Below, in pieces: positions 8,021 to 30,493 of a stretch of 64,000 nucleotides of DNA. A program made the position numbers and the translations under genes. The DNA is from Candidatus Latescibacterota bacterium. GTDB taxonomy: Bacteria; Latescibacterota; UBA2968; UBA8231. The stretch covers positions 32,001 to 96,000 of the forward strand of contig OY730476.1 of assembly GCA_963422735.1 (NCBI GenBank). The letters are read 5' to 3'. The first letter of the stretch is position 1. Each line of letters starts with the position of its first letter. The notes beneath the pieces were generated by a model. The model worked only from the letters and a program-made list of their open reading frames with translations, was not told where the DNA came from and ran no database searches.

Positions 8021-8233
8021 ATGCAGGCGACACTCTACACAGACGACGGGGCGTATTTTGTCCGCTTGGGCAATGGTTTGGTGCTCAGGTGGTGCCGGGC
8101 GGAAGATGAGTGGGACAAGAGCCGGGCCGAGTTGCCGAGCGGAGCTAGGCAGATCGACTTCGCGGCCCTGCCAGAAGCTCTGCGCGAGGAGGTGCTGGCG
8201 GTTTTGGCGCGCGCCGCGGCTGTGTCGCGCTAA
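8021..8233 (+). CDS. Small hypothetical protein (70 aa)
   Basis: ATG with GAGGGA RBS; MQATLYTDDGAYFVRLGNG... Confidence 0.55.
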   Translation: MQATLYTDDGAYFVRLGNGLVLRWCRAEDEWDKSRAELPSGARQIDFAALPEALREEVLAVLARAAAVSR

Positions 8234-11832: not shown

Positions 11833-14800
11833 GACAAGTCCCTCATGCGTTGGGGATCGAGGCGGCAGCTTTGTTGATAAGGGCAGTGCGGGCAGATTTT
11901 GGCCGGGTCGTGGGCGGTGACGCGAAACACCCCACGGCGCATGGCTCGCGCATAGGAGAGGACGAAGCCGCGCACGGCGTCGAGGCGCTGGCGATACGCT
12001 TCGTGGTCGTACAGGCCGTAGCGACCGCTGGCGACATAGGCCGCATTGCGATGTGTGGCATCGGCAAATAGCCCGCTGCGGCCGCAGTCCTCTAGGTCGC
12101 GGAGCATCAGGTACGCCGCCCCGGCCCCTTCTCGCAGCCCGATTTCCTCGAACAGGGATTCAGCCGCTAGTAAGTAGAGCGGGAGCTGGAGGTTGAGACC
12201 GATGTCAATATCGGCTACGGAGGGCATGCGGCCGGTCTTGTAGTCGAAGACGACGAAGCGGCCATCGGCCGTGCGGTCGATGCGGTCGATCTTGCCGGAA
12301 AGCCGCACTTCGTCCCCGGTTTCTGGGTCGCCGATGGCATAGAGCGTGGTGGTCGATTGCTGGTCGCCCTCCCCCATGCCGGGGTAGCTGCCAAAGCTCA
12401 GCTCAAAATGGGTCGGCACGGCCGGATTAGCCGCGGCCGATTGCAGGCGGAGGAAGCAGGGCAAGATGCCCTCGCGCTCCCCGTCGTCAGAGCCGAGCAG
12501 ACGCTCTAATTCTCGATCCCAGAAAAAGCCCGTAAGCCTCATTCCCTCGGCGATTTGGCGGCCTCGGTGCCGCAGTTCCGCGATATTTGTGGCCAAGTTT
12601 TCCGTGCGTTCAGCCGCTTCGCCCCGGTCCGCATAGAAGTGGTAAAGAATACGGTGGACGAGGTTGCCGCGCTTGAGCGCCGAGTCGTCGGCTCCTGGGT
12701 CGTGGAGGGGCTGGAGGTTGAGCAGTTCTTGGGCAAAAAACCGGAAGGGACAGCGGCCGTACAGCTCTAGTTGAGTCGCGGAAAAAGAATGACCCGCGCC
12801 GAGGCGGGTGCGCAGCGCGTCGAGTAGCGGAGCCTCGTCGAGTACGCCTTCATAGTGGCCGAAACCCTCGGAACTCGTGCGCCGTTCAGCAATGTGCAAG
12901 CCGCGCACGAGATGTGCAGTGGCGCGGTCGTCGAGCCGCACGGCTTGGTTGTAGAGTGCGAGGGCGTCGTGTGCGCGCTCGGATTCGCGCACAGCGCACA
13001 GGCCGTGCCCCAATGCAAGGTGCAACTCGGCAAGGGTCCCCGGTGTGGATCCGACCTCGCACGGGGAAGGCTGCGGAGCGAGCAGGCCGTCTAACTCGGC
13101 GAAAAAGGGAGAGGGGGCAAGCATCTTGCTGCCCGACTGCTGGGGATAGAAGACGCCGAGGCCGCGGCGCGGTGTGCATACGGCGCGGTAGAACAGCAAG
13201 CGCTCGGCGGCGGTGGTGGCGTCCTCGTCTAAGTTCAGGGCGCGGCGCTGGGTTTCTTCGAGGAAAATATCGGCTGGCGGCAAGCGGGGAAATTCGCCTT
13301 GCACCAACCCGCCGAGGAAGAGGTAATCGCAGGGTGTGCTGCCCGCTGCGGCGAGGTCGGTCACCTGAATGCCAGCGCGCGTTGTGGTGGGGACATGCGC
13401 TTGAAAGATGGCGTCGCGCAGCAGGTCGGCGAACTGGCTCAGGGTGCGGGGTTGCAGGGCTGCGGCCGGCGCGCACAATTCGTCGAGTAGCTCCAAAAAG
13501 CACGCCACTGCCCGGCCGTCTTCTACCGTCCCATCTGCGAGCGCGTCTTCTACGCCGAGGGCGCCGAGGGCGTGGAGCAGATGGTGGCGGAAGGAGGGTA
13601 GGTCCTGTCGGCTCTCCAAGGGCTGGAGCAAGTCAAAGAGTGCGGTTAGGCTGGCTCGTAGGGGCTGGAGGGCCTCCCATTCGTCGCGCAGGGACTCGCG
13701 CCAAGTGGGGAAATCGTCGATTTCTTCGGAGACTGGCTCTCCTTCTCGTTCTAACTCGCGCTCTATGTAGGCGAAGGTGTCGTCAATGGCTGCGAGCCAT
13801 GCGCTGCGCCCGGTTGGCGGCGAAATGTTGCGGGTCCACGCAGCGAAGTCTGCGGCGGAAAGCGTGCTGGTCTGGCGCGCGAATGCGTAGCGCAGTCGCA
13901 CCAAGGGCAAGCTGAGCAAGCGGAAGAGCGCGGCGCGGCTGTAGCGCTCTAGCACCGCGTTGATGAGCGCGAAGATGGTGTTCATGGCGGGCGCCGTGGC
14001 AAGGGGCCGCCCACGCGCGAGATAAAAAGGCAGGCCGTGGCGCGGCAGCACTTCCTCCACCAGCGCGGCATAGTCGTCGAGGTTGCGGAAGCCAATGCGG
14101 ATCTGCGCTAGTGCTACCCCTTGCTCTTGATGCAACTGGCGGACGCGGCGGGCCATCGCTGCGACTTCACCGACCCGGTCTGGGCAGGCGACCCGCTCTA
14201 CGGGCGCATCGAGGGAGTCGCGGCTGTGGGTGAAGAGACGGCCGGCAAACGCGGCGGCTGGGTATTGCTCGGCGGTGCTGTATTCGACGCGGACAGCGCG
14301 GGCGCGGAGGAATTCGTACAGGGAGCGCGTGCGGGCAAAAAAACTTGGGGCCTCGGGAATGTAGTCGAGCAACGCGATGGATTCTGGAACGAGGGCTAGC
14401 AGCTTGTCCAGCACGGGCAAAAAAGGTGTGGGCACTTCTACAAAGCCGCAGAACACGAGCAGGCTAAGGCCGGGGAAGTGCCGGGCGAGAACCGAGCGGT
14501 CGAGGTAGGTATCCACGGCGGCAAAACGCTCGCGGCTCCCGCTCCAGCCAGCCGCAAGGCGCTCTAGGTAGGTTGCATAAAGAGCCTGCAATTCCGCGCT
14601 GCGCTGAGTTGTTCCCCGCAGGTCACTCGGCTGGGTGCCCGTTTCCTCCAACCGGCGGAACAACTGAGTTAGCCCCCGGCTCAGCCGCTCGGGTCGGCTG
14701 CTGTAATAGGGTGCGCTGGCTGCGAGGGCGTCTTCGACTAAGAGCCGGTGGGCGCTGAGGGGCAGGGTTGGTCGCTGGCCGGGGCAGAGGCTATAGAGGA

Positions 14801-15017
14801 TGTCGGTAAAACTGTTTAGGTCGAGGGCCAAGTGCCCGGTGAGCAGGTGGCCGGCGCGGATGAGCTGCCGCCGCATGAGCTGGGCTTGGAAGTGCGATGG
14901 AAAGAGCCAGAGAAAGGACTCGCTGTCGCTTGCGTCGAGACGCGCCAAACAGCGCTCGTACGCGGGCGATGCCTTGTCGGGATGGGCTGGGCCGTAGATG
15001 AGGGTCAGTTCGCCCAT
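11829..15017 (-). CDS. addB: AddB-like PD-(D/E)XK nuclease subunit
   Basis: SATQLELYGRCPFRFF, GKIDRID, FDYKTG, QLPLY and C-terminal CPHCPYQQSC; coupled to addA. Confidence 0.85.
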   Translation of the reverse strand: MGELTLIYGPAHPDKASPAYERCLARLDASDSESFLWLFPSHFQAQLMRRQLIRAGHLLTGHLALDLNSFTDILYSLCPGQRPTLPLSAHRLLVEDALAASAPYYSSRPERLSRGLTQLFRRLEETGTQPSDLRGTTQRSAELQALYATYLERLAAGWSGSRERFAAVDTYLDRSVLARHFPGLSLLVFCGFVEVPTPFLPVLDKLLALVPESIALLDYIPEAPSFFARTRSLYEFLRARAVRVEYSTAEQYPAAAFAGRLFTHSRDSLDAPVERVACPDRVGEVAAMARRVRQLHQEQGVALAQIRIGFRNLDDYAALVEEVLPRHGLPFYLARGRPLATAPAMNTIFALINAVLERYSRAALFRLLSLPLVRLRYAFARQTSTLSAADFAAWTRNISPPTGRSAWLAAIDDTFAYIERELEREGEPVSEEIDDFPTWRESLRDEWEALQPLRASLTALFDLLQPLESRQDLPSFRHHLLHALGALGVEDALADGTVEDGRAVACFLELLDELCAPAAALQPRTLSQFADLLRDAIFQAHVPTTTRAGIQVTDLAAAGSTPCDYLFLGGLVQGEFPRLPPADIFLEETQRRALNLDEDATTAAERLLFYRAVCTPRRGLGVFYPQQSGSKMLAPSPFFAELDGLLAPQPSPCEVGSTPGTLAELHLALGHGLCAVRESERAHDALALYNQAVRLDDRATAHLVRGLHIAERRTSSEGFGHYEGVLDEAPLLDALRTRLGAGHSFSATQLELYGRCPFRFFAQELLNLQPLHDPGADDSALKRGNLVHRILYHFYADRGEAAERTENLATNIAELRHRGRQIAEGMRLTGFFWDRELERLLGSDDGEREGILPCFLRLQSAAANPAVPTHFELSFGSYPGMGEGDQQSTTTLYAIGDPETGDEVRLSGKIDRIDRTADGRFVVFDYKTGRMPSVADIDIGLNLQLPLYLLAAESLFEEIGLREGAGAAYLMLRDLEDCGRSGLFADATHRNAAYVASGRYGLYDHEAYRQRLDAVRGFVLSYARAMRRGVFRVTAHDPAKICPHCPYQQSCRLDPQRMRDLS

Positions 15018-15023
15018 TAAGAG

Positions 15024-15121
15024 CAGTGGTTAGGGGTTAGTGATCAGTGGTTAGGGGTTAGTGATCAGTGGTTAGGGGTTAGTGATCAGTGGTTAGTGAT
15101 CAGTGATCAGGGGTTAGGGGT
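15024..15121. repeat. Tandem array of 14 heptamers (YAGKGRT), including three perfect 21-bp units
   Basis: (CAGTGGT TAGGGGT TAGTGAT)x3 CAGTGGT TAGTGAT CAGTGAT CAGGGGT TAGGGGT. Confidence 0.95.
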
Positions 15122-19618: not shown

Positions 19619-22600
19619 TTGACTGAATTCTTTGAACAGCCCATTCTCAACTCGCCTTACGAGCGCCCGAACCGGCATTGGGAACTGGACGAGACCGGGC
19701 AGCCGACCCAGCAGATCGTCGAACACCGCCGGCAGGCCGAGTTTATCACGCCGATCCCACAGCCTAAGAAGCGCAAGGGAAAAGAGCAACAAGCCGCGCT
19801 GGTATTCGACGCGGCGGCGCAGAAGCTCGAAACCGCCGGCCAGCAATACGACCTGACGGCCATCATCAACGGGGTTCGTCAGCAGGTTGATCGCTGGCGC
19901 GACCTACCGAATCCGAGCCAATGGCAGGTGACCCCGGAGACCGCTCGGCTGCTCCGGCACTGGCGGGACCACCGCTTCAGTGGGACTCGGCCCTTCTTCT
20001 GCCAAGTCGAAGCGGTAGAGACCGCTATATGGCTCACTGAAGTTGCGCCTAGAACGCGATCCGGCAAGAGCTTCCTCGACCACCTAGCGAACGCCAACAA
20101 CGACGCCAATCCAGACCTGCCCCTGCCGCGGTTGGCACTCAAGTTGGCGACCGGCACCGGCAAGACCACGGTTATGGCCATGTTGATTGCTTGGCAGACC
20201 GTCAACGCGGTGCGCCGGCCTCAGAGCCGCGGCTTCACGCGCGGTTTCCTCGTAGTCACGCCCGGGATCACCATCAAGGACCGCCTGCGGGTGCTGCAAC
20301 CAAACGATCCGGACAGTTACTACCAGAGCCGCGAGTTGGTTCCAAGCGACATGCTCCCCGACTTGGAAAAGGCCAAGATCGTCATTACCAACTACCACGC
20401 CTTCAAGCGGCGCGAACGCATGGAGCTTTCCAAAGGCGGGCGATCTTTGCTTCAGGGACGGGGCGAGACGCTCTCGACCTTGGAGACCGAGGGGCAAATG
20501 CTGCAACGGGTGATGCCCGAACTCATGGGCGTAAAGAACGTCTTGATCCTCAACGACGAAGCGCACCACTGCTACCGCGAGAAGCCGGGCGAGGGGGAGG
20601 AAGGTGCGCTCAAGGGCGATGACAGAAAGGAAGCCGAAAAGAACAGGGAGGCGGCGCGGCTGTGGATTTCCGGGCTGGAAATCGTCGGCAGCAAGCTCGG
20701 CATCAACCGGGTGATGGACCTCTCGGCAACGCCGTTCTTTTTGCGCGGGTCGGGCTACGCCGAAGGTACGTTGTTCCCCTGGACGATGTGCGACTTCTCG
20801 CTCATGGACGCCATTGAATGCGGCATCGTCAAACTGCCCCGCGTGCCGGTGGCCGACAACATCCCCGGCAGCGACATGCCCAAGTTTCGCAATCTTTGGG
20901 AACACATCCGCACCAACATGCCGAAGAAGGGGCGGGGCAAGGCCAAGGAACTCGATCCTCTCAGTTTGCCCGTGGAGCTACAGACCGCACTGGAAGCCCT
21001 GTATGGGCATTATCGGAAGACCTTCGCGCTTATGCAGGAGGCGGGCATTGGCGTGCCGCCGTGCTTCATTGTGGTCTGCAACAACACCTCGACCTCCAAG
21101 TTGGTGTACGACTACATCTCCGGCTTCCACCGCGAGAACGAGGATGGTTCAAAGAAACTTGAGAATGGTCGCCTAGCGCTGTTTCGCAACTTTGACGAAC
21201 AGGGCAACCAGTACCCACGGCCTCGCACCCTGCTAATCGACAGCGAACAATTGGAGTCTGGCGACGCGCTCGACAAGAACTTCCGCAACATGGCGGCAGA
21301 TGAGATCGAGCGTTTCCGCCGCGAGATTATCGAACGTACCGGCGACCGTCGTCAGGCCGGAAATATCACCGACCAAGACTTGCTGCGGGAAGTGATGAAT
21401 ACAGTCGGCAAACCGGGGCGGCTAGGGGATTCGATTCGCTGTGTGGTGTCGGTCTCTATGCTCACGGAAGGGTGGGATGCGAACACCGTCAGCCATGTGT
21501 TGGGCGTGCGGGCCTTTGGGACGCAGTTGCTTTGCGAGCAGGTCGTTGGCCGTGCGTTGCGCCGGCAGTCCTACGATCTCAACGAAAAAGGTTTGTTCGA
21601 TGTCGAGTACGCCGATGTCTTGGGCATTCCATTCGACTTTACGGCCAAGCCCGTTGTGGCCCCGACGAGACCGCCGCGAGAGACCGTTCAGGTGCGGGCC
21701 ATGCGACCTGAACGGGATGCGCTGGAGATTTGTTTTCCTCGGGTAGCCGGGTATCGAGTGGAATTGCCGGAAGAGCGGCTCAAAGCCGAGTTCAACGAGG
21801 ACTCGGTGCTGGAACTCACGCCCGATCTGGTTGGTCCGTCGAGAACGAGGAACCAGGGGATTATCGGCGAGGGCGTGGATCTCAATCTGGTTCACACCAA
21901 CGACCTGCGGCGCTCGACCCTACTTTTTCATCTGACCCATCGGTTGCTCTACACCAAGTACCGCGATCCGGGCGAAGAGCCCAAGCTCTATCTTTTCGGC
22001 CAGCTCAAGCGCATCGCCAAGCAGTGGCTCGATGGCTGCCTCGTCTGCAAGGGCAGCACCTATCCGGCCCAACTCATGTACCAGGGACTAGCCGACACAG
22101 CCTGCGGGCGCATCGCCGCCGCCATCACGCAAGCGAAAATCGACCATCATCCGGTCAAAGCGGTGCTCGATCCGTACAACTCCGTTGGTTCAACAGCCCA
22201 CGTGAATTTCAACACGACCAAGGCCAGCCGCTGGCAGACCGACGCCCGCCGTTGCCACATCAACTGGATCATCCTCGACAGCGACTGGGAAGCGGAGTTT
22301 TGCCGCGTCGCCGAATCCCATCCGCACGTCAAAGCCTACGTCAAAAACCACAATCTCGGCTTGGAAGTGCCCTACCGTTGCGGGTCGGAAACGCGGACGT
22401 ATATCCCGGACTTTATCGTCCGCATTGATGATGGCGGTGGCGATGAGGATCTGCTGCATCTGATCGTCGAGATCAAGGGCTATCGGGGGGAAGACGCCAA
22501 GGACAAGAAGACGACCATGGACACCTATTGGGTGCCTGGCGTGAATCATCGCGGGGACTACGGGCGCTGGGCTTTTGCCGAGCTTACCGATGTGTTCGAG

Positions 22601-22654
22601 GTGGAAGCTGCGTTCAATCGTTTGGTTGAGCGGTTCCGGTTGAGGACCGGGTAG
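19619..22654 (+). CDS. res: Type III-like restriction subunit (Res; SF2 helicase plus PD-(D/E)XK nuclease)
   Basis: KLATGTGKT, NDEAHHCY, SATP, MLTEGWD and YIPDFIV...VEIKG. Confidence 0.88.
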   Translation: MTEFFEQPILNSPYERPNRHWELDETGQPTQQIVEHRRQAEFITPIPQPKKRKGKEQQAALVFDAAAQKLETAGQQYDLTAIINGVRQQVDRWRDLPNPSQWQVTPETARLLRHWRDHRFSGTRPFFCQVEAVETAIWLTEVAPRTRSGKSFLDHLANANNDANPDLPLPRLALKLATGTGKTTVMAMLIAWQTVNAVRRPQSRGFTRGFLVVTPGITIKDRLRVLQPNDPDSYYQSRELVPSDMLPDLEKAKIVITNYHAFKRRERMELSKGGRSLLQGRGETLSTLETEGQMLQRVMPELMGVKNVLILNDEAHHCYREKPGEGEEGALKGDDRKEAEKNREAARLWISGLEIVGSKLGINRVMDLSATPFFLRGSGYAEGTLFPWTMCDFSLMDAIECGIVKLPRVPVADNIPGSDMPKFRNLWEHIRTNMPKKGRGKAKELDPLSLPVELQTALEALYGHYRKTFALMQEAGIGVPPCFIVVCNNTSTSKLVYDYISGFHRENEDGSKKLENGRLALFRNFDEQGNQYPRPRTLLIDSEQLESGDALDKNFRNMAADEIERFRREIIERTGDRRQAGNITDQDLLREVMNTVGKPGRLGDSIRCVVSVSMLTEGWDANTVSHVLGVRAFGTQLLCEQVVGRALRRQSYDLNEKGLFDVEYADVLGIPFDFTAKPVVAPTRPPRETVQVRAMRPERDALEICFPRVAGYRVELPEERLKAEFNEDSVLELTPDLVGPSRTRNQGIIGEGVDLNLVHTNDLRRSTLLFHLTHRLLYTKYRDPGEEPKLYLFGQLKRIAKQWLDGCLVCKGSTYPAQLMYQGLADTACGRIAAAITQAKIDHHPVKAVLDPYNSVGSTAHVNFNTTKASRWQTDARRCHINWIILDSDWEAEFCRVAESHPHVKAYVKNHNLGLEVPYRCGSETRTYIPDFIVRIDDGGGDEDLLHLIVEIKGYRGEDAKDKKTTMDTYWVPGVNHRGDYGRWAFAELTDVFEVEAAFNRLVERFRLRTG

Positions 22655-22695: not shown

Positions 22696-24438
22696 ATGCC
22701 TTGGGATAGCGATAGCTTGTTGCAGCAACTCAAGCTTGGCGAGGACAGCCGCGTTGAGTTCAAAGAAGCCGGGTTCACCGGCGACCGCGTCCGTGCGCCT
22801 CATCGGGACGCTATCGCCGACGAGTTGGCCGCTTTGGGCAACACCATCGGCGGCACCTTGATCTTCAGCGCGTCCGACGCTGGTGAGGTGCGGTCGATGA
22901 ACCGCGAACAGATGGATGCGTTGGAAGCCTTCGTCAGCGAGATTTGTGCAGACAGCATCCGTCCTCCGTTGGCGTTTGTCACCCAACGGTTGGCTCTGCC
23001 GGACGGTTCGTTTGTGCTGGTTGTCGAAGTCGAACAAAGTGCGCTGGTCCACAAGAGTCCCGGGGGATACCTTTCCCGACAAGGCAGTGCCAAGCGAGAG
23101 ATGTCGTCGGAGGCATTGAACCGTCTGTTTCAGCAACGGGGGCGTTCTGGCCTGCTCGGCCCTGACGAAGCGATCGTTGCCGGAACCGGATCCAACACGC
23201 TCGATGAAACCCTAACAGATCGTTTCATGAGTTCGCGCGCCACCGAGCCCACAATCGTCCAACTCACAAAGCTGGGGTTGGTGCGGGAGGATGACAGCGG
23301 TGCGATCCGCGCAACGGTCGCCGGGGTGTTGCTTTGCTCCGGACGCCCGGATGAGCACATACGCGGCGCGATGATCGAAGCAGTTCGCTATCGCGGCACG
23401 GTGCTTGGCCGAGCGAGTCAGCACGACGCGGCGTCCATCACCGGCCCGTTGGACCAGCAGATCCGCGATGCGGTCAACTTCGCTAGACTCAACACGCGGG
23501 TAGCGGCGCGCAAGGCCCCGGGGCGAGTAGAGACCCCGCAATTTAGTCCGCGAGCAGTATTTGAGGCCATCGTCAACGCGGTGGTCCACCGCGACTACTC
23601 AGTGGAGAACGCAAAGATACGGCTCTTCATCTTCGACGACCGCCTTGAGTTGTACTCGCCGGGTGCTCTGCCCAACACGCTGCCCATCGAAGCCATGCGC
23701 AATCGACAAGCCACCCGCAATGAAACGCTCGCGTCCATCCTCCGTATGCTCGCGGTAGGGGATATTGCCGGTGCGGGTGACCGGCAGTATTTCTTGGAGC
23801 AACGCGGTGAAGGGGTTCCGATCATCTACGAGCAGACCCGGGAGCTGACAGGACGCGATCCAGAGTACGAACTGCTCGGCGGCGCGGAACTGCGGCTGAC
23901 GATACCTTCTGCCCGTCCGCCGGTAACGGGCATCGAAGGGGAAGTGTTGGTGTCTGCCGCCGGTCAGCCGCTTGCAAGTGCAAAGGTCGTTGCGCTGTAC
24001 CCCAACAAGACTTGGATGGAGGGGGAAACCAATGCGTTTGGTCGGGTCCATTTCGGGTTTCACTCGAAACTTCCCATCACCGTTTTCTGCGCGGCACCGG
24101 GACACACTGCCCACGTGGAGCGGGATTGGCACCCGCCGGAATCGCTCTCGGTGCAGCTTGAACCGCTGCCAATGGGTGGATCAACGGTGTTCACGGAGGG
24201 GACAGGTCACTTGCCCAATTTGACCGGGCGGCTAGATCCGATCCTCGACGATCTCGACCGCATGTACCTGTACGCGACAAACGTCGCCATTGACGAAGGC
24301 AAGCAGCAACCCGTGCGTTTCAAACTGAATCAGCCCTTGCAGCTTACAGATGTCAACGGGTTTGAATGGATCGTGCGGTTCATTGAGATGATCGGAAAGT
24401 CGGCACTGTTGGAATACGAATCCCCGTCCCCCGATTAA
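22696..24438 (+). CDS. AlbA_2 (Schlafen-like) plus RecG-C/HATPase_c_4 protein with extra C-terminal beta domains
   Basis: GEDSRVEFKE, ALGNTIGG, EAIVNAVVHRDY, DRLELYSPG and EQRGEG. Confidence 0.8.
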   Translation: MPWDSDSLLQQLKLGEDSRVEFKEAGFTGDRVRAPHRDAIADELAALGNTIGGTLIFSASDAGEVRSMNREQMDALEAFVSEICADSIRPPLAFVTQRLALPDGSFVLVVEVEQSALVHKSPGGYLSRQGSAKREMSSEALNRLFQQRGRSGLLGPDEAIVAGTGSNTLDETLTDRFMSSRATEPTIVQLTKLGLVREDDSGAIRATVAGVLLCSGRPDEHIRGAMIEAVRYRGTVLGRASQHDAASITGPLDQQIRDAVNFARLNTRVAARKAPGRVETPQFSPRAVFEAIVNAVVHRDYSVENAKIRLFIFDDRLELYSPGALPNTLPIEAMRNRQATRNETLASILRMLAVGDIAGAGDRQYFLEQRGEGVPIIYEQTRELTGRDPEYELLGGAELRLTIPSARPPVTGIEGEVLVSAAGQPLASAKVVALYPNKTWMEGETNAFGRVHFGFHSKLPITVFCAAPGHTAHVERDWHPPESLSVQLEPLPMGGSTVFTEGTGHLPNLTGRLDPILDDLDRMYLYATNVAIDEGKQQPVRFKLNQPLQLTDVNGFEWIVRFIEMIGKSALLEYESPSPD

Positions 24439-24923: not shown

Positions 24924-27900
24924 ATGGCAAAACGAAAATCACCTAAGACGGTCGCAACTCTGCGGCACGAGGACGCAGCGCGTAAGAATATCCCCACGGC
25001 CGAGTATCAGGCGGTGATGGAGGAGGACGACCGGAATCCCATTGAGGTCGCGTACGAGCGGCGCAACCGGGACCTCGACCCGCAGCTTGTTTGGCGCGGC
25101 AAGGACGAGCAGAACGAGTCGGACCTCGTGGTGCAAGCACCGCCGCTGTTCATTCAGGAGAAGGTGCATCCGCAGGTGCTGATTGACGATCTGCGGCAGC
25201 GGAGCAAGGAGACGGAGAAGGAGGATGGCGAATCGGGCTTCCAGACGGATCTGTTCGCGGATTTCAACGGCCTGCCGAGTGCAGACGCCCAGACTGAGTT
25301 CTACCAGCACGACGCCAACTGGTCGAATCGGATGATTCTTGGGGACAGCTTGCAGGTGATGGCGTCTTTGGCCGAACGCGAGGGCCTGCGCGGCAAGGTG
25401 CAGTGCATCTATCTCGACCCGCCCTACGGCATCAAGTTCAACTCGAACTTCCAGTGGTCAACCACCAGCCGCGATGTGAAGGACGGCAAGGCCGAGCACA
25501 TCACCCGCGAGCCGGAGCAGGTCAAGGCGTTTCGGGATACGTGGCGGGACGGGATTCATTCGTACCTGACGTACTTGCGGGATCGGCTGACGGTGGCGCG
25601 GGATCTGTTGACGGAGAGTGGATCGATCTTTGTGCAGATTGGGGATGAGAATGTGCATCGGGTAAGGGCGGTGATGGATGAGGTGTTTGGGGAGGGGAAT
25701 TTTGTTGGGTTGATTACTTTTATGAAGGCAACAGCACAGACTTCCAAGCTGCTATCAACAGCATCAGATTACTTGATTTGGTACGCTCGGTTGAAGCCAC
25801 AGGCAAAATATCGCGCACCATTGCTAAAAAAAGTAATTGGTCGGGCCGGAGCTACGGGCTACTCGAACATAGAAGCGTCTGATGGAACTATCTCTCGTCG
25901 TATAAGCCAAGAGGAACGGGAAAATCCTGCTCTTATTTCTACAGATGAGAGAGTGTTCGCATTAGACCATATACGTGGCACAAGGACTCCGAATCCTGCT
26001 GACCTTAAAGGTTATACATTTCAAGGCACAACCTTTAATTCCGACGGACGCTATTGCTGGAAAACCGACAAAAAGGGTCTCGACAACCTTGACAAGAGCT
26101 GGCCGGTTGTAAAAGCAGGAAACCAATTATCGTACAAGCGATATTTCCACGATGATTGCCTATCCCGTTCGACAAACTGGGCGATACCGCTGGTATTGCT
26201 ACGGATAAAGTCGATACGTCGTGGAGACGAAACCAAAGTCATCCAACGCTGCATCCTCATGACCACAGACCCTGGCGACCTCGTCCTCGACCCCACCTGC
26301 GGCTCCGGCACCACCGCCTACGTCGCCGAGCAGTGGGGCCGCCGCTGGATCACCATCGACACCTCCCGCGTCGCCCTCGCACTCGCCCGCGCCCGCATCA
26401 TGGGCGCACGCTATCCCTGGTATCTGCTCGCCGACAGCCCCGAAGGCCGGCGCAAGGAAGCGGAAATCAGTGGCCAGGCGTCAGTGACCGGTGGTCAGTT
26501 TAACGACAACTCGCCGACCACTGGTCACTCTCACTCCATCCGCCAAGGCTTTGTCTATCAGCGCGTCCCCCACATTACGCTCAAGTCCATCGCCAACAAC
26601 GCCGAGATCGACGTAATCTGGGAGAAGTACGAGGAGCGGCTTGCGCCGCTCCGTGAACAGTTGTCAGCCCACCGGCCACAGACCACTGACCACCGGCCAC
26701 TCGAAGAATGGGAGATACCGCGTGAGCGTCCAGAAGACTGGCCACCGGCCACTGAACCACTGATCACTGCTTTCTGGAAGCAGCGCATCGCCCGACAAAA
26801 GGAAATCGACGCTTCCATCGCCGCCAAAGCCGACTATGAATACCTCTACGACAAGCCCTACGAAGACAACAAGAAAGTCCGCGTGGCTGGCCCGTTTACG
26901 GTGGAAAGCCTGTCGCCGCACCGCCTGTTGGGCGTGGACGAGAACGACGAACTCATCATTGATAAAGCTGCCGAAGACAAACCCGACTACGGCGAAAAGC
27001 AGGACTTTGCCGAGATGATCCTCGATAATCTCAAAACCTCTGGCGTCCAGCAGGCGCACAAAGACGACAAAATCAACTTCAGCTCACTCGTCCCCTGGCC
27101 CGGCCACCTCGTCTGCGCCGAAGGCCGGTTTGATAGTGGTCAGTGGCCAGTGGTCAGTGGCCAGAAGAAGAACGCACAAGCCACTGGTCACAGACCACGG
27201 GCTACTGAACACCGCGCCGGCATTTTCATTGGCCCGGAATTCGGCACCGTCTCCCGTCCCGACCTCGTGGAAGCAGTCCGCGAGGCCGCCGACGCCGGCT
27301 TCGACGTTTTAATCGCCTGCGCCTTCAACTATGACGCCCACGCCTCGGAGTTCAACAAACTTGGCCGCGTCCCCATCCTCAAGGCGCGCATGAACGCCGA
27401 CCTGCATATGGCCGACGATCTCAAAAACACCGGCAAAGGCAACCTCTTCGTCATCTTCGGCGAGCCGGATATTACAGTGACCAGTGGTCAGTGGCTGGTG
27501 GCCAGTAACGGGAGAATGATTGCGAATTATGAGCACGTTAAAGAGTTATCAGGACTTGGAAGTCTGGAAGAAATCAATCGAACTGGCAGAGATGGTCTAT
27601 CGAATCTCTGCCAAGTTTCAGCCGGAAGAAAAATTCGGCATAACCAGCCAAGTGCGGAGGGCGGCGGTATCCGTGGCAGCGAATATCGCAGAGGGAGCAG
27701 AGCGTCACGGGACCAAGGAATTTCTCCAATTTCTGGGGATAGCCAGCGGTTCTCTAGCAGAGACGGAGACCTTTCTGATTCTGGCGCAGAAGCTGGGAAT
27801 GGCCCCAGCCGAGCAGATCAACCCCCTGCTATCGCAGGCGGCGGACGTTGGACGGATGCTCAATGGGCTCAAGCGCTCGCTGCGGTCCAGGAACTGACTC

Positions 27901-28262
27901 ACGCGGACTTCCCGCTGTCCCTGACCACAGGCCACTGGTCACAGGCCACTGTCCACGGCGTGGACGTATTTCATCCGAACACCGGCGAAATCCGCAGCGA
28001 CAGCGCCGACGGCATCGCCTGCTGGTTCGTCGATACCGACTACAACGAGGAAAGCTTCTTCGTGCGCCACGCCTACTTCCTCGGCGCCAACGATCCGTAC
28101 AAGACGCTCAAGACGACGCTCAAAGCCGAGATCAATCGAGAAGCTTGGGAAACCCTCAAAAGCGACACCTCCCGGCCTTTCGCCAAGCCGCAGTCGGGCC
28201 GCATCGCGGTGAAGGTGATCAATCACTTAGGGGACGAGGTGATGAAGGTGTTTCGGGTGTGA
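24924..28262 (+). CDS. mod: Type III-like adenine DNA methyltransferase (Mod) carrying in-frame repeat insertions and a nested gene
   Basis: YLDPPYG catalytic motif, VLDPTCGSGTT SAM motif and C-terminal IAVKVINHLGDEVMKVF. Confidence 0.9.
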   Translation: MAKRKSPKTVATLRHEDAARKNIPTAEYQAVMEEDDRNPIEVAYERRNRDLDPQLVWRGKDEQNESDLVVQAPPLFIQEKVHPQVLIDDLRQRSKETEKEDGESGFQTDLFADFNGLPSADAQTEFYQHDANWSNRMILGDSLQVMASLAEREGLRGKVQCIYLDPPYGIKFNSNFQWSTTSRDVKDGKAEHITREPEQVKAFRDTWRDGIHSYLTYLRDRLTVARDLLTESGSIFVQIGDENVHRVRAVMDEVFGEGNFVGLITFMKATAQTSKLLSTASDYLIWYARLKPQAKYRAPLLKKVIGRAGATGYSNIEASDGTISRRISQEERENPALISTDERVFALDHIRGTRTPNPADLKGYTFQGTTFNSDGRYCWKTDKKGLDNLDKSWPVVKAGNQLSYKRYFHDDCLSRSTNWAIPLVLLRIKSIRRGDETKVIQRCILMTTDPGDLVLDPTCGSGTTAYVAEQWGRRWITIDTSRVALALARARIMGARYPWYLLADSPEGRRKEAEISGQASVTGGQFNDNSPTTGHSHSIRQGFVYQRVPHITLKSIANNAEIDVIWEKYEERLAPLREQLSAHRPQTTDHRPLEEWEIPRERPEDWPPATEPLITAFWKQRIARQKEIDASIAAKADYEYLYDKPYEDNKKVRVAGPFTVESLSPHRLLGVDENDELIIDKAAEDKPDYGEKQDFAEMILDNLKTSGVQQAHKDDKINFSSLVPWPGHLVCAEGRFDSGQWPVVSGQKKNAQATGHRPRATEHRAGIFIGPEFGTVSRPDLVEAVREAADAGFDVLIACAFNYDAHASEFNKLGRVPILKARMNADLHMADDLKNTGKGNLFVIFGEPDITVTSGQWLVASNGRMIANYEHVKELSGLGSLEEINRTGRDGLSNLCQVSAGRKIRHNQPSAEGGGIRGSEYRRGSRASRDQGISPISGDSQRFSSRDGDLSDSGAEAGNGPSRADQPPAIAGGGRWTDAQWAQALAAVQELTHADFPLSLTTGHWSQATVHGVDVFHPNTGEIRSDSADGIACWFVDTDYNEESFFVRHAYFLGANDPYKTLKTTLKAEINREAWETLKSDTSRPFAKPQSGRIAVKVINHLGDEVMKVFRV
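26468..26535. repeat. In-frame heptamer hairpin A in mod
   Basis: AGTGACCGGTGGTC (26483-26496) pairs with GACCACTGGTCACT (26516-26529), with one G-U pair. Confidence 0.8.
26668..26769. repeat. In-frame heptamer tracts B in mod (3'-arm type only)
   Basis: CCCACCG GCCACAG ACCACTG ACCACCG GCCACTC and GCCACCG GCCACTG A ACCACTG ATCACTG. Confidence 0.75.
27134..27214. repeat. In-frame heptamer hairpin C in mod
   Basis: TAGTGGT CAGTGGC CAGTGGT CAGTGGC, an 18-nt loop, then GCCACTG GTCACAG ACCACGG GCTACTG. Confidence 0.85.
27474..27952 (+). mobile_element. Intervening-sequence-like insert bounded by 33-nt heptamer inverted repeats
   Basis: Arms 27474-27506 and 27920-27952 give 25/33 Watson-Crick plus 3 G-U pairs; they enclose the four-helix-bundle gene. 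Mobility is inferred. Confidence 0.65.
27529..27897 (+). CDS. Four-helix-bundle protein (23S rRNA IVP / Avd-like), nested in the +1 frame of mod
   Basis: SYQDLEVWKKSIELAEMVY...F.PEEKFGITSQVRRAAVSVAANIAEG...EFLQFLGIASGSLAETET...RMLNGL is the full family signature; GGGAGA upstream. Confidence 0.92.
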   Translation: MSTLKSYQDLEVWKKSIELAEMVYRISAKFQPEEKFGITSQVRRAAVSVAANIAEGAERHGTKEFLQFLGIASGSLAETETFLILAQKLGMAPAEQINPLLSQAADVGRMLNGLKRSLRSRN

Positions 28263-28305
28263 GGATCGGATAAAGACGAATCGCCCATCTCTAACTGACT
28301 ACCCC

Positions 28306-28485
28306 ATGAAAAAACAAACCATCCAATACACTTCGCCCATAGTGCGGTTAAATACCTACGAAAATCAGCAACAGATGAATTCGGAAGAGATCTTTGACTA
28401 GTACAACCGGGGCCAACTATCCGACGATTGGGCCAATGACTACCGCCACTATTTGCAACTCCGCGCCGTTCCAACGCATACAATA
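28306..28485 (+). pseudogene. Small antitoxin-like (TumA-like) remnant
   Basis: MKKQTIQYTSP...YENQQQMNSEEIFD*YNRGQLSDDWANDYRHYL with an internal TAG. Confidence 0.5.
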
Positions 28486-28573
28486 AGGGCACCCACAAGG
28501 GCATCTGTTCCAAGCCAAATAGTTGGAACAAATGACACAAGGGGTGCCCGATAGCGTCGCGTATTAACGCGCC

Positions 28574-30493
28574 CTACTTCTTATCTTCGTCAACGACCTT
28601 AAAGTCGGCGTCCACTACGCCCGAATCCCCGCCTCCTTGCGGCTGACCGGCGGCACCTTCCGGCGCTGGCTCGCCCTGCGCCTGTTGGGCTTGGGCGTCC
28701 TTGTACATTTCCTCCGCCAGCTTGTGCGACGCCTGTTGCATCGCGGCCATGGCCTGAGTGATGGCCTCGTCGTCCGTGCCTTCGAGTGCTTCCTTTAGCG
28801 CAGCGACCGCGTCCTCAACGCCTTTCTTGTCGGCATCGGCTAGCTTGTCGCCGTGTTCGGCGAGCGATTTTTCCGCCGCGTAAATGAGCTGGTCGGCCTC
28901 GTTGCGGCGATCGACGGACTCGCGGCGCTTTTTGTCCTCATCGGCATGGGCCTCGGCGTCCTTCTGCATGGTGTCAATTTCCTCTTGGCTCAGGCCCGAG
29001 GACGACTCAATGCGGATGGATTGCTCCTTGTTGGTGCCCTTGTCCTTGGCCGCGACGTTGAGGATGCCGTTGGCGTCGATGTCGAAGGTCACCTCAATTT
29101 GGGGCATGCCACGTGGAGCTGCGGGGATGCCGTCGAGGTGGAAGCGGCCGAGGGTGCGGTTGTCGTTGGAGAATTCCCGCTCGCCTTGCAGCACGTGGAC
29201 TTCCACCGAGGGCTGGCTGTCCGAGGCCGTGGAAAAGATCTGGCTCTTCTTGGTGGGGATGGTGGTGTTGCGATCGATTAGCCGCGTCATCACCCCGCCC
29301 ATGGTTTCGATCCCGAGCGACAAGGGCGTTACGTCGAGCAGCAGGACGTCGTCGACATCGCCAGCGAGCACGCCGGCTTGGATGGCCGCGCCCAAGGCCA
29401 CGACCTCGTCGGGGTTGACGCCGCGATTCGGCTCTTTGGCGAATAGGGCTTGGATGGTCTCTTGGATTTTCGGGATGCGCGTCGAGCCGCCGACCAAAAT
29501 CACTTGGTCAATGTCGCTAACTTGCAATTCGGCGTCTGCGAGGGCCTGCTGACAGGGGGCCTTGGTGCGCTCGACTAGGTCGTCAACCAAGTGCTCAAAC
29601 TGGGCGCGAGACAGGCTGGTTTGCAAGTGTTTCGGCCCCGTTTGATCGGCGGTGATAAACGGCAGATTGATTTCGGTCGAAGTGGAGGAAGACAGCTCGA
29701 TCTTGGCCTTTTCGGCCGCTTCTTTGAGCCGTTGCAGGGCCATGGGGTCGCGGCGCAGGTCAATGCCCTCCTTCTGTTGGAAGTCCTCGGCGAGCCAGTT
29801 GATGATCTTCTGGTCGAAATCGTCGCCGCCAAGGTGGGTGTCGCCGTTGGTGGATTTGACCTCGAAGACGCCGTCGCCCAGTTCGAGGATGGAAATGTCG
29901 AAGGTGCCGCCGCCGAGGTCGTACACGGCGATCTGCTCGTTGGTGCCGCCCTTGTCCAAGCCGTAAGCCAGCGCCGCGGCGGTCGGCTCGTTGACGATGC
30001 GCAAAACCTCCAGGCCGGCGATGGTGCCCGCGTCCTTGGTGGCTTGGCGTTGGGCGTCGTTGAAGTACGCCGGGACGGTGACGACGGCTTGTTTCACTTC
30101 CTCGCCCAGATAGTCTTCGGCTGTCTGCTTCATCTTTTGCAAGATCATGGCCGAGATTTCCGGCGGCGTGTATTCGTTGCCGTCGATTTTGGCCACGGCT
30201 AAGTCGCGGCTATCGTGGGCCACTTCGTAGGGAACTTCGCTGATTTCGTTGGCGACTTCGCTGTAGCGGCGGCCCATGAAGCGCTTGATCGAATAGATCG
30301 TGTTCTGCGGGTTGGTGACGGCCTGGCGCTTGGCGGTCTGGCCGACGAGGCGCTCGCCGTCTTTGGTGAAACCGACCATGGAGGGCGTGGTGCGGCCCCC
30401 TTCAGAGTTGGCGATTATCTCCGAGTCTTGGCCCTCGATGACGGCGACGCACGAGTTCGTGGTGCCTAAGTCGATGCCGATGGTTTTAGCCAT
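28574..30493 (-). CDS. dnaK: Chaperone DnaK (Hsp70)
   Basis: [26 protein letters not shown] and NPDEVVA. Confidence 0.99.

What the first reader, a model, noticed from the sequence alone, without database searches (positions are those of the whole stretch)
27474..27952. Complete four-helix-bundle gene nested in the +1 frame inside a DNA methyltransferase gene, enclosed by a heptamer-repeat stem
SEEN: between mod residues GEPDI and GVDVFHPNTG there are about 160 codons. They contain an intact 122-aa ORF (27529-27897) in the +1 frame with its own GGGAGA RBS, and the mod frame has no stop codon across the whole overlap. The flanks ACAGTGACCAGTGGTCAGTGGCTGGTGGCCAGT and CCTGACCACAGGCCACTGGTCACAGGCCACTGT pair at 25/33 Watson-Crick plus 3 G-U positions, which suggests an RNA-level stem. 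KNOWN: this protein family (23S_rRNA_IVP) is encoded in stem-bounded intervening sequences excised from 23S rRNA by RNase III, and it shares its fold with the nucleic-acid-binding DGR protein Avd. As I recall, Mod homologues have only about 15 residues at this site. INFERENCE: this is an IVS-like cassette living in an mRNA. It could be tolerated as a disordered in-frame loop, removed or bypassed at RNA or translation level, or used to tune Mod expression. No transposase, RT, intein or intron signature is visible.
Basis: partly seen in the sequence, partly recalled or inferred. Interest (0 to 1): 0.95.

Follow-up and report, generated by a model that had tools for sequence, protein, structure and literature searches.

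The report
Small gene nested inside methyltransferase gene
A complete small gene of the kind known from ribosomal-RNA "intervening sequences", closed off by a stem of 7-base repeats, sits in a second reading frame inside a DNA-methyltransferase gene whose own frame is kept readable across it in dozens of bacterial species, which makes it an unusually clear bacterial case of one DNA stretch coding for two proteins.

Summary
Window 27474-27952 is a 479-nt cassette: two inverted heptamer-repeat arms (25 Watson-Crick, 3 G-U, 5 mismatches) around an intact 122-aa PF05635/TIGR02436 four-helix-bundle (4HB) gene. It lies in the +1 frame of a Type III mod gene (24924-28262), whose frame stays open.

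It is a conserved arrangement. The same cassette sits at the same Mod site in 67 of the 80 closest 4HB loci, from many phyla. Empty-site homologues have 15-20 residues there.

Inside the 4HB ORF, codon-position variability follows the 4HB frame. In the arms and flanks it follows the Mod frame. Host-frame stops are avoided: T before AA/AG/GA codons occurs at 1 of 1954 junctions when nested, against 21 of 269 in free-standing copies.

The stem shows compensatory changes at synonymous sites. The first ~24 4HB codons carry extra synonymous constraint only when nested, and AlphaFold folds the corresponding Mod-frame peptide confidently.

Related cassettes occur free-standing and inside MmeI/Eco57I-type methyltransferase and peptidase-like genes. 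The anatomy matches the ORF-bearing 23S rRNA intervening sequence.

Seven paper searches found no description. Earlier notes of this scan (e1-4059063, e1-774459) report the same arrangement on other DNA. The function of the 4HB protein is still unknown.

The parts
19619..22654 (+). res gene of the Type III restriction-modification locus (1011 aa)
   Evidence: PF04851 ResIII at E 1.2e-8; weak PF19778 endonuclease domain; weak PADLOC REase_III hits.
22696..24438 (+). Gene between res and mod encoding a Schlafen/AlbA_2 plus HATPase_c_4 protein (580 aa)
   Evidence: PF04326 at 5.2e-11 and PF13749 at 2.7e-17.
24924..28262 (+). mod gene (1112 aa), the host of the cassette
   Evidence: PF01555 at 2e-28. 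PADLOC MTase_III PDLC03632 at E 0. DPPY (165-168) and DPTCGSGTT (456-464) are invariant or nearly so in alignment A1.
27474..27506 (+). 5' arm of the cassette: heptamer repeats, read in the Mod frame as TVTSGQWLVAS
   Evidence: Pairs with the 3' arm in 79.2% of cells across 55 sequences. Most variable at Mod codon position 3.
27510..27515 (+). Shine-Dalgarno-like GGGAGA before the nested gene
   Evidence: Consensus GGGAGG, with G37 and G38 invariant in 55 sequences. The spacing to the ATG is 13 nt, which is long.
27529..27897 (+). Nested four-helix-bundle gene (122 aa plus stop), +1 frame relative to mod
   Evidence: PF05635 at 1.4e-38 and TIGR02436 at 1.2e-36. PDB 2gsc_A at E 1.6e-24. ATG in 54 of 55 sequences. 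The codon-position pattern follows this frame.
27529..27600 (+). Doubly constrained stretch: 4HB codons 1-24, read in the Mod frame as about EHVKELSGLGSLEEINRTGRDGLS
   Evidence: Synonymous differences are 0.24 here against 0.43-0.58 elsewhere in Mod-nested pairs, and 0.55 in pairs that include a free-standing copy. Predicted helices have pLDDT of about 85.
27920..27952 (+). 3' arm of the cassette: complementary heptamers, read in the Mod frame as LTTGHWSQAT
27134..27206 (+). Cargo-less heptamer hairpin inside mod, in frame (SGQWPVVSGQKKNAQATGHRPRATEH)
   Evidence: Present at the same site in P0002-4, P0010 and P0024, and absent from empty-site homologues.
26467..26535 (+). Cargo-less heptamer hairpin inside mod, in frame
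26664..26770 (+). Two same-orientation heptamer arrays inside mod, in frame (HRPQTTDHRP ... WPPATEPLIT)

Best explanation
The feature is an intervening-sequence-type cassette: a four-helix-bundle gene between two inverted arrays of 7-base repeats. It is lodged at the tip of a beta-hairpin in the C-terminal part of a Type III Mod methyltransferase. Both reading frames are used. The 4HB protein is made from its own start codon on the mod transcript, and this frame is the one under ordinary protein-level selection. Ribosomes translating Mod read straight through the cassette in the -1 frame relative to the 4HB gene. This yields a full-length Mod with about 146 extra residues. The arms and the first and last parts of the insert form a folded stalk, and the middle roughly 75 residues are disordered. 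Selection keeps the Mod frame free of stop codons, keeps the length at 161 codons and keeps the two arms complementary at the nucleic-acid level. The unit has spread with this mod gene across many phyla. Now and then it has moved between mod, intergenic sites and other genes.

Shown here: conservation, selection in both frames, stem covariation, other contexts. Inferred: actual translation of both products, the role of the stem (RNase III processing or translational coupling), the mechanism of movement, and what the 4HB protein does.
For: Family membership of the nested gene is clear.

Site and length are conserved:
- 96 of the 120 best Mod homologues have exactly 161 residues between the anchors, and 5 are empty with 15-20.
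- Of 80 loci found with the 4HB protein alone, 67 lie in this Mod. 57 of these are intact, 4 are cut by contig ends and 6 have lesions elsewhere.

The codon-position signal switches at the ORF borders. Mod position 3 is the most variable in the flanks and arms (0.40-0.49). 4HB position 3 is the most variable (0.438) and Mod position 3 the least (0.149) inside the ORF.

Host-frame stops are avoided:
- 0 of 1618 junctions carry T against 734 of 5037 elsewhere.
- By context the counts are 1 of 1954 when nested in Mod, 0 of 79 in other hosts and 21 of 269 when free-standing.
- At fourfold-degenerate sites T is 0 of 956 against 11.7% of 2554, while site diversity is equal at 0.47 and 0.49.
- Free-standing copies have host-equivalent-frame stops in 17 of 19 cases.

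The stem is conserved. 79.2% of cells pair against 23-45% when slid, and 70 cells changed on both sides against 42.9 +/- 7.4 in shuffles (0 of 500). Pairs 3/477, 9/471 and 24/456 join two Mod third positions.

There is extra synonymous constraint on 4HB codons 4-20 only in nested copies: 0.214 against 0.503 in Mod-Mod pairs, 0.560 against 0.597 in free-Mod pairs (regions). AlphaFold gives pLDDT 72-89 for the two ends of the insert and 23-28 for the middle.

Other hosts keep their frame open: L090, L092 and P0166 (MmeI/Eco57I-type methyltransferases) and L021 (LysM/PA/M28 protein).

The 4HB tree intersperses free-standing and other-host copies among the Mod-nested ones.
Against: There is no direct evidence that either product is made. 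The RNA-library contigs that I laid come from relatives, and contigs cannot show ends or levels.

The Shine-Dalgarno-like motif is 13 nt from the ATG, which is a poor spacing. In Coxiella the homologous ORF is reported as probably not translated (PMC4990558, passages).

The sequences are related, so the counts overstate the number of independent events. The shuffle control does not preserve relatedness.

Both AlphaFold models are poor overall, with mean pLDDT 52.6 and 52.4. Local confidence may partly reflect conservation that the other frame imposes.

The within-gene synonymous permutation alone is weak per sequence: the median probability of an open frame is 0.10.

Six Mod-nested copies are broken outside the ORF, three of them by gain or loss of one 7-nt unit. 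So the arrangement also decays.
Confidence: 0.8

Rival explanations
1. RNA-level removal or processing is the main fate. RNase III cuts the 33-bp stem, as it does in 23S rRNA intervening sequences. This either releases a 4HB mRNA and destroys the mod message (down-tuning the restriction system), or the insert is skipped by the ribosome. On this view read-through translation is incidental.
For: The anatomy equals that of RNase III-excised rRNA intervening sequences (PMC4990558, passages). The stem is kept by compensatory changes at synonymous sites, which points to nucleic-acid-level selection. The fold is stable, z = -3.56.
Against: If the insert were always removed or bypassed, nothing would keep the host frame stop-free or fix the length at 161 codons. 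Nothing would constrain the Mod-frame peptide either. The two 'joints' seen in RNA contigs carry other letters between the two sides or match empty-site allele sequence, so they come from other organisms. Partial cleavage as an added regulatory layer is not excluded.
Confidence: 0.1
2. The 4HB protein is a working partner or regulator of the methyltransferase or restriction system, and not a selfish passenger. On this view the nesting ensures co-expression.
For: The cassette sits in two unrelated DNA-methyltransferase families: PF01555 Mod, and the MmeI/Eco57I type in L090, L092 and P0166. It has been retained with this Mod across many phyla, and the 4HB frame is under purifying selection.
Against: Close relatives of the same 4HB are free-standing between heptamer arrays or lie in a LysM/PA/M28 protein gene. 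Most same-genus Mod genes work without it, having empty sites. Two nested copies (L056, L072) carry a stop in the 4HB frame while Mod stays open. No PADLOC model matches the 4HB protein.
Confidence: 0.2
3. The heptamer arms act as a phase-variation switch. Gain or loss of one 7-nt unit shifts the mod frame on or off, as simple-sequence repeats do in the phasevarion mod genes of Haemophilus and Neisseria.
For: The spacing from GEPDI to the ATG is 55 nt in 63 loci. It is 48 (-7) in L017, L041 and L094, and 62 (+7) in L099. L045 lacks 14 nt on the 3' side. 7 is not a multiple of 3.
Against: The arms are only 4-5 imperfect units. L041 and L094 are the same sequence. L017 and L041 have further lesions upstream, with N-part frames of 613 and 381 aa. 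L099 also has a stop in the 4HB frame. This looks like decay. I made no within-population read analysis.
Confidence: 0.08
4. It is a simple disruptive insertion or an assembly artefact, mod is dead here and the open frame is chance.
For: Off-frame stops are rarer in a genome of 59.5% G+C. The per-sequence permutation gives a probability of an open frame as high as 0.37.
Against: The arrangement is the same in 57 intact independent assemblies. The third frame has 2-11 stops. T is excluded only where it would make a host-frame stop. The catalytic motifs are intact, and the res gene beside it is intact.
Confidence: 0.02

Closest known systems
ORF-bearing intervening sequences of 23S rRNA (Coxiella burnetii helix 45, Leptospira; S23p protein)
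   Same: The same protein family sits in the loop (PF05635). There are terminal inverted repeats, a 33-bp stem here against 28 bp. The length is similar, 479 nt against 428-444 nt. Tandem heptameric repeats lie beside the ORF (PMC4990558, passages).
   Different: The host is a protein-coding gene and not an rRNA. The element is tolerated by read-through in a second frame that selection keeps open, and not, as far as shown, by RNase III excision. Part of that second frame is itself conserved and predicted to fold. Here the ORF is under purifying selection, whereas the Coxiella ORF is reported as decaying.
Same-strand overlapping (nested) genes, as in viruses and a few proposed bacterial cases
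   Same: One DNA stretch is read in two frames on the same strand, with selection visible in both.
   Different: This did not arise by overprinting of an old gene. The inner gene is a member of a large pre-existing family that arrived as a cassette, and the outer frame across it is the newcomer. The overlap covers the whole 366-nt inner gene and recurs in many phyla.
Inteins and other in-frame insertions in host proteins
   Same: It is inserted in frame at a defined site of a host protein, and homologues with an empty site exist.
   Different: The host-frame peptide has no Hint or endonuclease domain and no Pfam hit at all at E up to 10. The cargo protein is encoded in another frame. Nothing suggests protein splicing.
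Phase-variable Type III mod genes (phasevarions)
   Same: It is a Type III mod gene carrying short tandem repeats whose unit length is not a multiple of three.
   Different: The repeats are imperfect and few, and they are arranged as inverted arms around a gene. Unit-number variants among relatives come with other lesions.
Avd accessory protein of diversity-generating retroelements
   Same: Distant sequence likeness of the nested protein: PF22296 bAvd at 2.6e-5 and NF033474 at 3.5e-5, both below their cut-offs.
   Different: I saw no reverse transcriptase or template/variable repeats in the ORF and family tables of 8230-32775. The scores are far below the Avd family cut-offs, so it is not a member.

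Membership tests
PF05635 / TIGR02436 four-helix-bundle (23S rRNA IVS protein, S23p) | Profile score above the curated cut-off over the full domain | tested here: met
   PF05635: 131.8 bits against 33.8, profile positions 1-106 of 106. TIGR02436: 125.3 bits against 24.
PF05635 / TIGR02436 four-helix-bundle (23S rRNA IVS protein, S23p) | Sequence relative of a solved four-helix-bundle member | tested here: met
   2gsc_A (XCC0516) at E 1.6e-24 over residues 5-121; 2rld_A at 7.7e-6. I did not model the fold of the window protein itself.
ORF-bearing rRNA intervening sequence | Terminal inverted repeats that form a long stem around the ORF | tested here: met
   A 33-position stem with 25 Watson-Crick and 3 G-U pairs. 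Conserved with compensatory changes.
ORF-bearing rRNA intervening sequence | Heptameric repeats beside the ORF | tested here: met
   Heptameric repeats in the Coxiella IVS are described in PMC4990558.
ORF-bearing rRNA intervening sequence | Inserted in a helix of 23S rRNA | tested here: not met
   It lies inside the mod coding sequence.
ORF-bearing rRNA intervening sequence | Excised from the transcript by RNase III | not testable with these tools
   Only contigs of RNA libraries were available, and these cannot show ends.
Type III restriction-modification Mod | Beta-class N6/N4 methyltransferase domain with DPPY and FxGxG-type motifs | tested here: met
   PF01555 at 2e-28. D165-P166-P167-Y168 are invariant and D456, P457, T458, G460, G462 and T463 are invariant in A3. 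Similar to the EcoP15I Mod 4zcf_A at 5.1e-16 through P0034.
Type III restriction-modification Mod | Adjacent Res helicase-nuclease gene | tested here: met
   19619-22654: ResIII at 1.2e-8 and a weak endonuclease domain. The order is res, extra gene, mod, which differs from the classical mod-res order (recalled).
Intein | Hint splicing domain in the host frame | tested here: not met
   No Pfam family at E up to 10 for the 161-aa host-frame peptide.
Overlapping gene pair | Selection detectable in both frames of the shared DNA | tested here: met
   4HB frame: codon-position pattern. Mod frame: stop avoidance, and extra synonymous constraint on codons 1-24 only in nested copies.
Phase-variable mod (phasevarion) | Repeat-number change that switches the frame within a population | tested here: inconclusive
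   Variants of +/-7 nt exist between genomes but come with other lesions. No read-level test was made.
DGR Avd | Score above the family cut-off and a neighbouring reverse transcriptase | tested here: not met
   NF033474 scores 24.1 bits against a cut-off of 80, and PF22296 scores 25.1 against 40. No RT appears among the neighbours scanned.

The most novel reading that the evidence does not exclude
The cassette is a gene-invading mobile element of a kind not yet described. It carries, in the -1 frame of its own gene, an evolved adaptor: a stop-free reading frame whose ends fold into a stalk. This lets it sit inside protein-coding genes without killing them, and is the translational counterpart of its RNase III excision from ribosomal RNA. 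It would be a third way, beside introns and inteins, for an element to live inside a gene. It would also tie the unexplained bacterial heptamer-repeat hairpins to a defined cargo.
Probability: 0.35. Interest if true: 0.9.

Novelty: new variant of a known kind. Interest (0 to 1): 0.85.

Why it matters
Long same-strand overlapping genes in bacteria are disputed, and genome annotation pipelines disallow them. Here the inner gene belongs to a large curated family, and the outer gene is a recognisable enzyme with empty-site relatives. The arrangement recurs in dozens of species, so selection on both frames can be measured directly.

The finding extends the intervening-sequence cassette, known for over 25 years only from rRNA genes, to protein-coding genes. 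It suggests how such elements survive there. It also gives a concrete handle on two long-standing unknowns: the function of the PF05635/S23p proteins, and the nature of bacterial heptamer-repeat hairpins.

In practice, annotators will either miss the 4HB gene or split the mod gene. Methyltransferase catalogues will also carry about 146 residues of shadow-frame sequence in these proteins.

Tried and rejected
1. Do the genome-wide heptamer arrays depend on a resident 4HB gene? No. Genomes with many arrays have no PF05635 match: G053 with 566 pattern matches, G004 with 263, G012 with 211 and G002 with 157.

2. RNA evidence. Of 23 runs listed, I laid 4 (X1-X4). The RNA runs among those listed hold only 6-11% of the sampled words, and X1 is only guessed to be RNA. 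All four were contigs from relatives. The two 'joints' that skip 482-487 nt are empty-site alleles of other organisms: one has 49 letters between the sides, and loose ends read as the empty-site peptide. One X4 contig bridges the 5' junction (27431-27576, 16 differences). This shows neither expression nor processing in this organism.

3. Full-length AlphaFold model of Mod: mean pLDDT 52.6, pTM 0.28, not usable as a whole. The C-terminal-half model is also poor overall at 52.4, so I used only local confidence. A Foldseek search of that model against the PDB gave 0 matches at E up to 0.001.

4. Pfam scan of the Mod-frame insert peptide at E up to 10: nothing. A recalled likeness of ELSGLGSLEEIN to helix-hairpin-helix motifs therefore has no support.

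5. RNAalifold also pairs the GGGAG motif (columns 37-41) with columns 143-147. Those pairs barely vary, so this says nothing.

6. No sigma-70-like promoter was found in 27000-28600: 0 against 0.6 expected.

7. A search of 1.84 billion representatives with the host-frame peptide gave 51 hits at E up to 0.001, mostly fragments. Of the 10 I scanned, 6 were PF01555, 1 was MmeI/Eco57I type and 3 had no family. Full-length Mod clusters are probably represented by other members, so this is not a census.

8. I considered clean phase variation and set it low.

9. I did not run complex prediction, because I do not claim that the 4HB protein binds Mod.

10. Slips corrected and re-sent.

Full report
THE OBSERVATION.
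The window holds a Type III restriction-modification locus. It consists of res (19619-22654), a Schlafen/AlbA_2-HATPase_c_4 gene (22696-24438) and mod (24924-28262, 1112 aa).

Between the Mod residues GEPDI and GVDV lie 161 codons without a stop. In the +1 frame they contain an ATG-to-TGA ORF, 27529-27897, of 122 aa. This ORF scores 131.8 bits on PF05635 (cut-off 33.8) and 125.3 bits on TIGR02436 (cut-off 24). It matches the solved four-helix-bundle protein 2gsc_A at E 1.6e-24.

The flanks 27474-27506 and 27920-27952 are inverted arrays of CAGTGRY-type heptamers. Read base by base, they pair at 25 Watson-Crick and 3 G-U positions out of 33. The predicted fold forms this stem, z = -3.56.

These are hairpins at 26467-26535 and 27134-27206, and same-orientation arrays at 26664-26770.

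IT IS A CONSERVED ARRANGEMENT.
Among the 120 best-scoring Mod homologues, the spacing between the two anchors falls out as follows:
- 96 have exactly 161 residues.
- 9 have 129 residues.
- 2 have 152-157 residues.
- 3 have 75-99 residues.
- 5 have 15-20 residues (the empty site, GEPDI-DILDAEDSQIQVKVN-GVDV).
- In 5 my first anchor mis-hit, although the C-terminal arm peptide is present.

This ranking favours insert-bearing proteins, because the query carries the insert. I therefore sampled independently of the host frame. A search of one genome per species with the 4HB protein alone found 154 relatives, of which the best 80 were kept. They sort as follows:
- 57 lie in an intact Mod of this family. 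54 have 161 codons, 2 have 159, and L057 has diverged anchors.
- 4 lie in this Mod but are cut by contig ends.
- 6 lie in this Mod with lesions outside the ORF.
- 3 lie in other host genes.
- 10 are free-standing.

The record titles name many groups: Arenicellales, Dehalococcoidia, Nitrospirales, Poribacteria, Entotheonella, Latescibacterota, Opitutales, Desulfobacteraceae, Methylomirabilis, Planctomycetota, Acidobacteriota and others.

In the window's own genus most genomes have the empty site, matching residues 1-854 and 1007-1112 with about 18 nt between. G004 and G025 keep an internally deleted remnant. The window's closest cassette, at 98% identity, is in an Arenicellales genome (L014).

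The window's Mod shares its target-recognition region with empty-site proteins (P0031, P0046) and its backbone with P0002-P0004. The gene is therefore a mosaic, as mod genes often are.

WHICH FRAME IS SELECTED?
I used a gapless alignment of 55 cassettes (A2). In the 300 nt on either side, and in the arms, the most variable codon position is Mod position 3 (0.40-0.49). Inside the nested ORF the most variable is 4HB position 3 (0.438), and Mod position 3 is the least variable (0.149).

The 4HB gene is therefore a real gene under purifying selection. The arms are selected as Mod coding sequence. The ATG is kept in 54 of 55 sequences, and a stop stands at the same place in 52 of 55.

IS THE MOD FRAME OPEN BY SELECTION?
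A host-frame stop can arise only where a 4HB codon ending in T precedes a codon starting AA, AG or GA.
- In the 55 aligned cassettes, T occurs at 0 of 1618 such junctions, against 734 of 5037 other junctions.
- Over all 80 usable ORFs the counts are 1 of 1954 in Mod-nested copies (the one is the truncated L089) and 0 of 79 in other hosts. They are 21 of 269 in free-standing copies, against a background of 12-18%.
- At fourfold-degenerate sites T is 0 of 956 before risk codons, against 11.7% of 2554 elsewhere. These sites are as diverse as the others (0.47 against 0.49) and use A, C and G.

Many substitutions have therefore happened, and only the one that would stop Mod is missing.

The third frame has 2-11 stops. 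Free-standing copies have stops in the host-equivalent frame in 17 of 19 cases. The exceptions are L083 and L101. I left out three degraded copies, L105, L113 and L118.

The within-gene synonymous permutation is weak per sequence, with a median probability of an open frame of 0.10. The sequences are also related, so none of these counts is a probability.

THE STEM.
Columns 1-33 pair with columns 479-447 in 79.2% of cells, against 23-45% when the partner is slid by 1-3 columns. Cells changed on both sides number 70, against 42.9 +/- 7.4 in shuffles, with 0 of 500 shuffles reaching this. RNAalifold recovers the same helix independently.

The pairs 3/477, 9/471 and 24/456 switch between G-C and A-U and join two Mod third positions. 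Pairing is therefore maintained at the nucleic-acid level and not through the peptide.

PART OF THE SHADOW FRAME IS MORE THAN A SPACER.
4HB third-position diversity is 0.18-0.30 in codons 1-24, against 0.42-0.65 further on. I took pairs of ORFs with 55-80% 4HB identity and counted codons with the same amino acid but different letters.
- In 1941 Mod-Mod pairs the fraction is 0.214 for codons 4-20, against 0.503 for codons 25-108.
- In 490 free-Mod pairs it is 0.560 against 0.597.

By region, codons 1-24 give 0.24 against 0.55, and codons 109-122 give 0.43 against 0.67. The extra constraint exists only in nested copies. It coincides with the best-conserved Mod-frame peptide, VKELSGLGSLEEINR.

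An AlphaFold model of the Mod C-terminal half is poor overall, with mean pLDDT 52.4. Locally it gives pLDDT 84-86 for construct residues 261-300 and 72 for 301-310, which cover the arm strands plus two helices. It gives 80-89 for 391-420 and 23-28 for 311-384.

My reading is that the arms and the two ends of the insert form a stalk on the Mod surface and the middle roughly 75 residues are disordered. This rests on prediction.

THE CASSETTE AS A UNIT.
The ten free-standing close relatives are all bracketed by inverted heptamer arrays. Of the free-standing copies found in the window's relatives, L096, L097, L107, L109, L112 and L113 are clearly bracketed too, each by arrays of a different unit sequence.

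Three close relatives lie in other genes with the host frame open in the same relative frame. L090 and L092 lie just before motif I of an MmeI/Eco57I-type methyltransferase, with GCGAGCR-type arms. L021 lies in a gene of more than 2274 aa for a LysM/PA/M28 protein. P0166 is a further MmeI-type host.

The frame relation is forced, because the other frame cannot be opened by synonymous changes; the permutation probability is about 0.

A quick maximum-likelihood tree of 81 4HB proteins places free-standing and other-host copies among Mod-nested ones. This tree has few columns and many open forks. The label 'mod' needs 6 changes, and strongly supported branches force at least 2. L021 groups with the Poribacteria Mod copies, and three free alphaproteobacterial copies lie in a 97% clade with Mod-nested alphaproteobacterial ones. 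The unit has therefore moved between contexts.

A divergent 4HB at 48% identity occupies the same Mod site in G044 (L100), again with the host frame open.

In the window's genome, 121 heptamer arrays were found. Adjacent arrays face each other as hairpins 18 times and face apart 3 times. Sixteen of the 18 hairpins have loops of 19-58 nt and no open frame across them. This cassette is the only one with cargo and the only PF05635 gene in the genome.

Heptamer arrays do not need a resident 4HB gene, because several array-rich genomes have none.

COMPARISON WITH WHAT IS KNOWN.
The Coxiella 23S rRNA intervening sequence is 428-444 nt long. It is bounded by inverted repeats that form a 28-bp stem cut by RNase III. 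It carries an S23p ORF of this family, preceded by tandem heptameric repeats (PMC4990558, passages read).

The cassette here works like that element in anatomy, but it fails the defining feature of lying in rRNA. Its excision could not be tested. It is not an intein, having no Pfam hit in the host frame. It is not an Avd, since the scores are far below the cut-offs.

Seven paper searches found no description of a 4HB gene nested in a protein-coding gene. These used terms on the family names, heptamer repeats, overlapping genes and Type III mod. From PMC10053308 and PMC4679880 I read passages only. All other papers I saw only as listings.

Earlier notes of this scan report the same arrangement on other DNA: e1-4059063 and e1-774459. 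Others report heptamer-armed cassettes in general: e1-838458, e1-921855 and e1-2027067. These are unchecked AI notes, and my tests here were made independently of them.

WHAT REMAINS OPEN.
No direct evidence exists for either protein or for RNA processing. The Shine-Dalgarno-like motif stands 13 nt from the ATG.

Three independent loci differ by one 7-nt unit in the 5' arm, which breaks the Mod frame. They carry other lesions as well, so I read them as decay and not as a switch. The function of the 4HB protein and the way the cassette moves are unknown.

VERDICT.
This is a real and conserved feature, and I found no paper describing it. It is a new variant of the intervening-sequence cassette and a strong case of a fully nested same-strand overlapping gene in bacteria.

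Noticed in passing
window 26467-26535, 26664-26770, 27134-27206: Three further heptamer-repeat sites without cargo lie in frame inside the same mod gene: two hairpins and a pair of same-orientation arrays. Insert-bearing homologues (P0002-4, P0010, P0024) have them at the same sites, with large expansions in P0024. Empty-site homologues lack all of them.
   Followed up: partly
G000 whole genome (for example C1:236630-236762, 4785805-4785934): 121 heptamer arrays were found. Neighbouring arrays face each other as hairpins 18 times and face apart 3 times. 16 of the 18 hairpins have loops of 19-58 nt and no open frame across them. Array-rich relatives without any PF05635 gene exist.
   Followed up: partly
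L017, L041 (= L094), L099, L045, L062: Arm-length variants of exactly one heptamer (-7, -7, +7) or two heptamers (-14) break the Mod frame. L062 has lost about 280 codons between an upstream heptamer site and the 5' arm, as if by recombination between arrays. The 4HB ORF stays intact in L017, L041, L045 and L062.
   Followed up: partly
L058 (and L056 in the same genome record): One genome holds a Mod-nested copy whose 4HB frame has a stop (L056). It also holds a free-standing locus where a second 4HB gene follows the first in tandem between heptamer arrays (L058).
   Followed up: no
L100 (G044:C1:3335778-3336083), P0016, P0116: A divergent 4HB lineage (48% identical to the window's protein, insert of about 152 residues) occupies the same Mod site with the host frame open. 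This suggests either an old split or replacement of the cargo.
   Followed up: no
window 24924-28262 compared with P0002-4 and P0031/P0046: The mod gene is a mosaic. Its target-recognition region (about residues 260-440) matches empty-site proteins, while the rest matches insert-bearing proteins with other recognition regions.
   Followed up: no
window 22696-24438: A Schlafen/AlbA_2 plus HATPase_c_4 gene sits between res and mod.
   Followed up: no
window 15080-15111: A short array of TAGTGAT/CAGTGGT heptamers lies between the divergent genes that end at 15017 and start at 15310.
   Followed up: no
window 8230-15017 (- strand): There are two large adjacent genes. One has UvrD-helicase plus PD-(D/E)XK domains (1200 aa) and the other has a PD-(D/E)XK domain (1062 aa). 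This looks like an AddAB-type helicase-nuclease pair.
   Followed up: no
window 27463-27955 in the laid runs X2-X4: Contigs from RNA libraries carry empty-site alleles of this mod family, with loose ends reading IDILDAEDNQIQVK-like sequence. One X4 contig crosses the 5' junction of a cassette-bearing relative.
   Followed up: no
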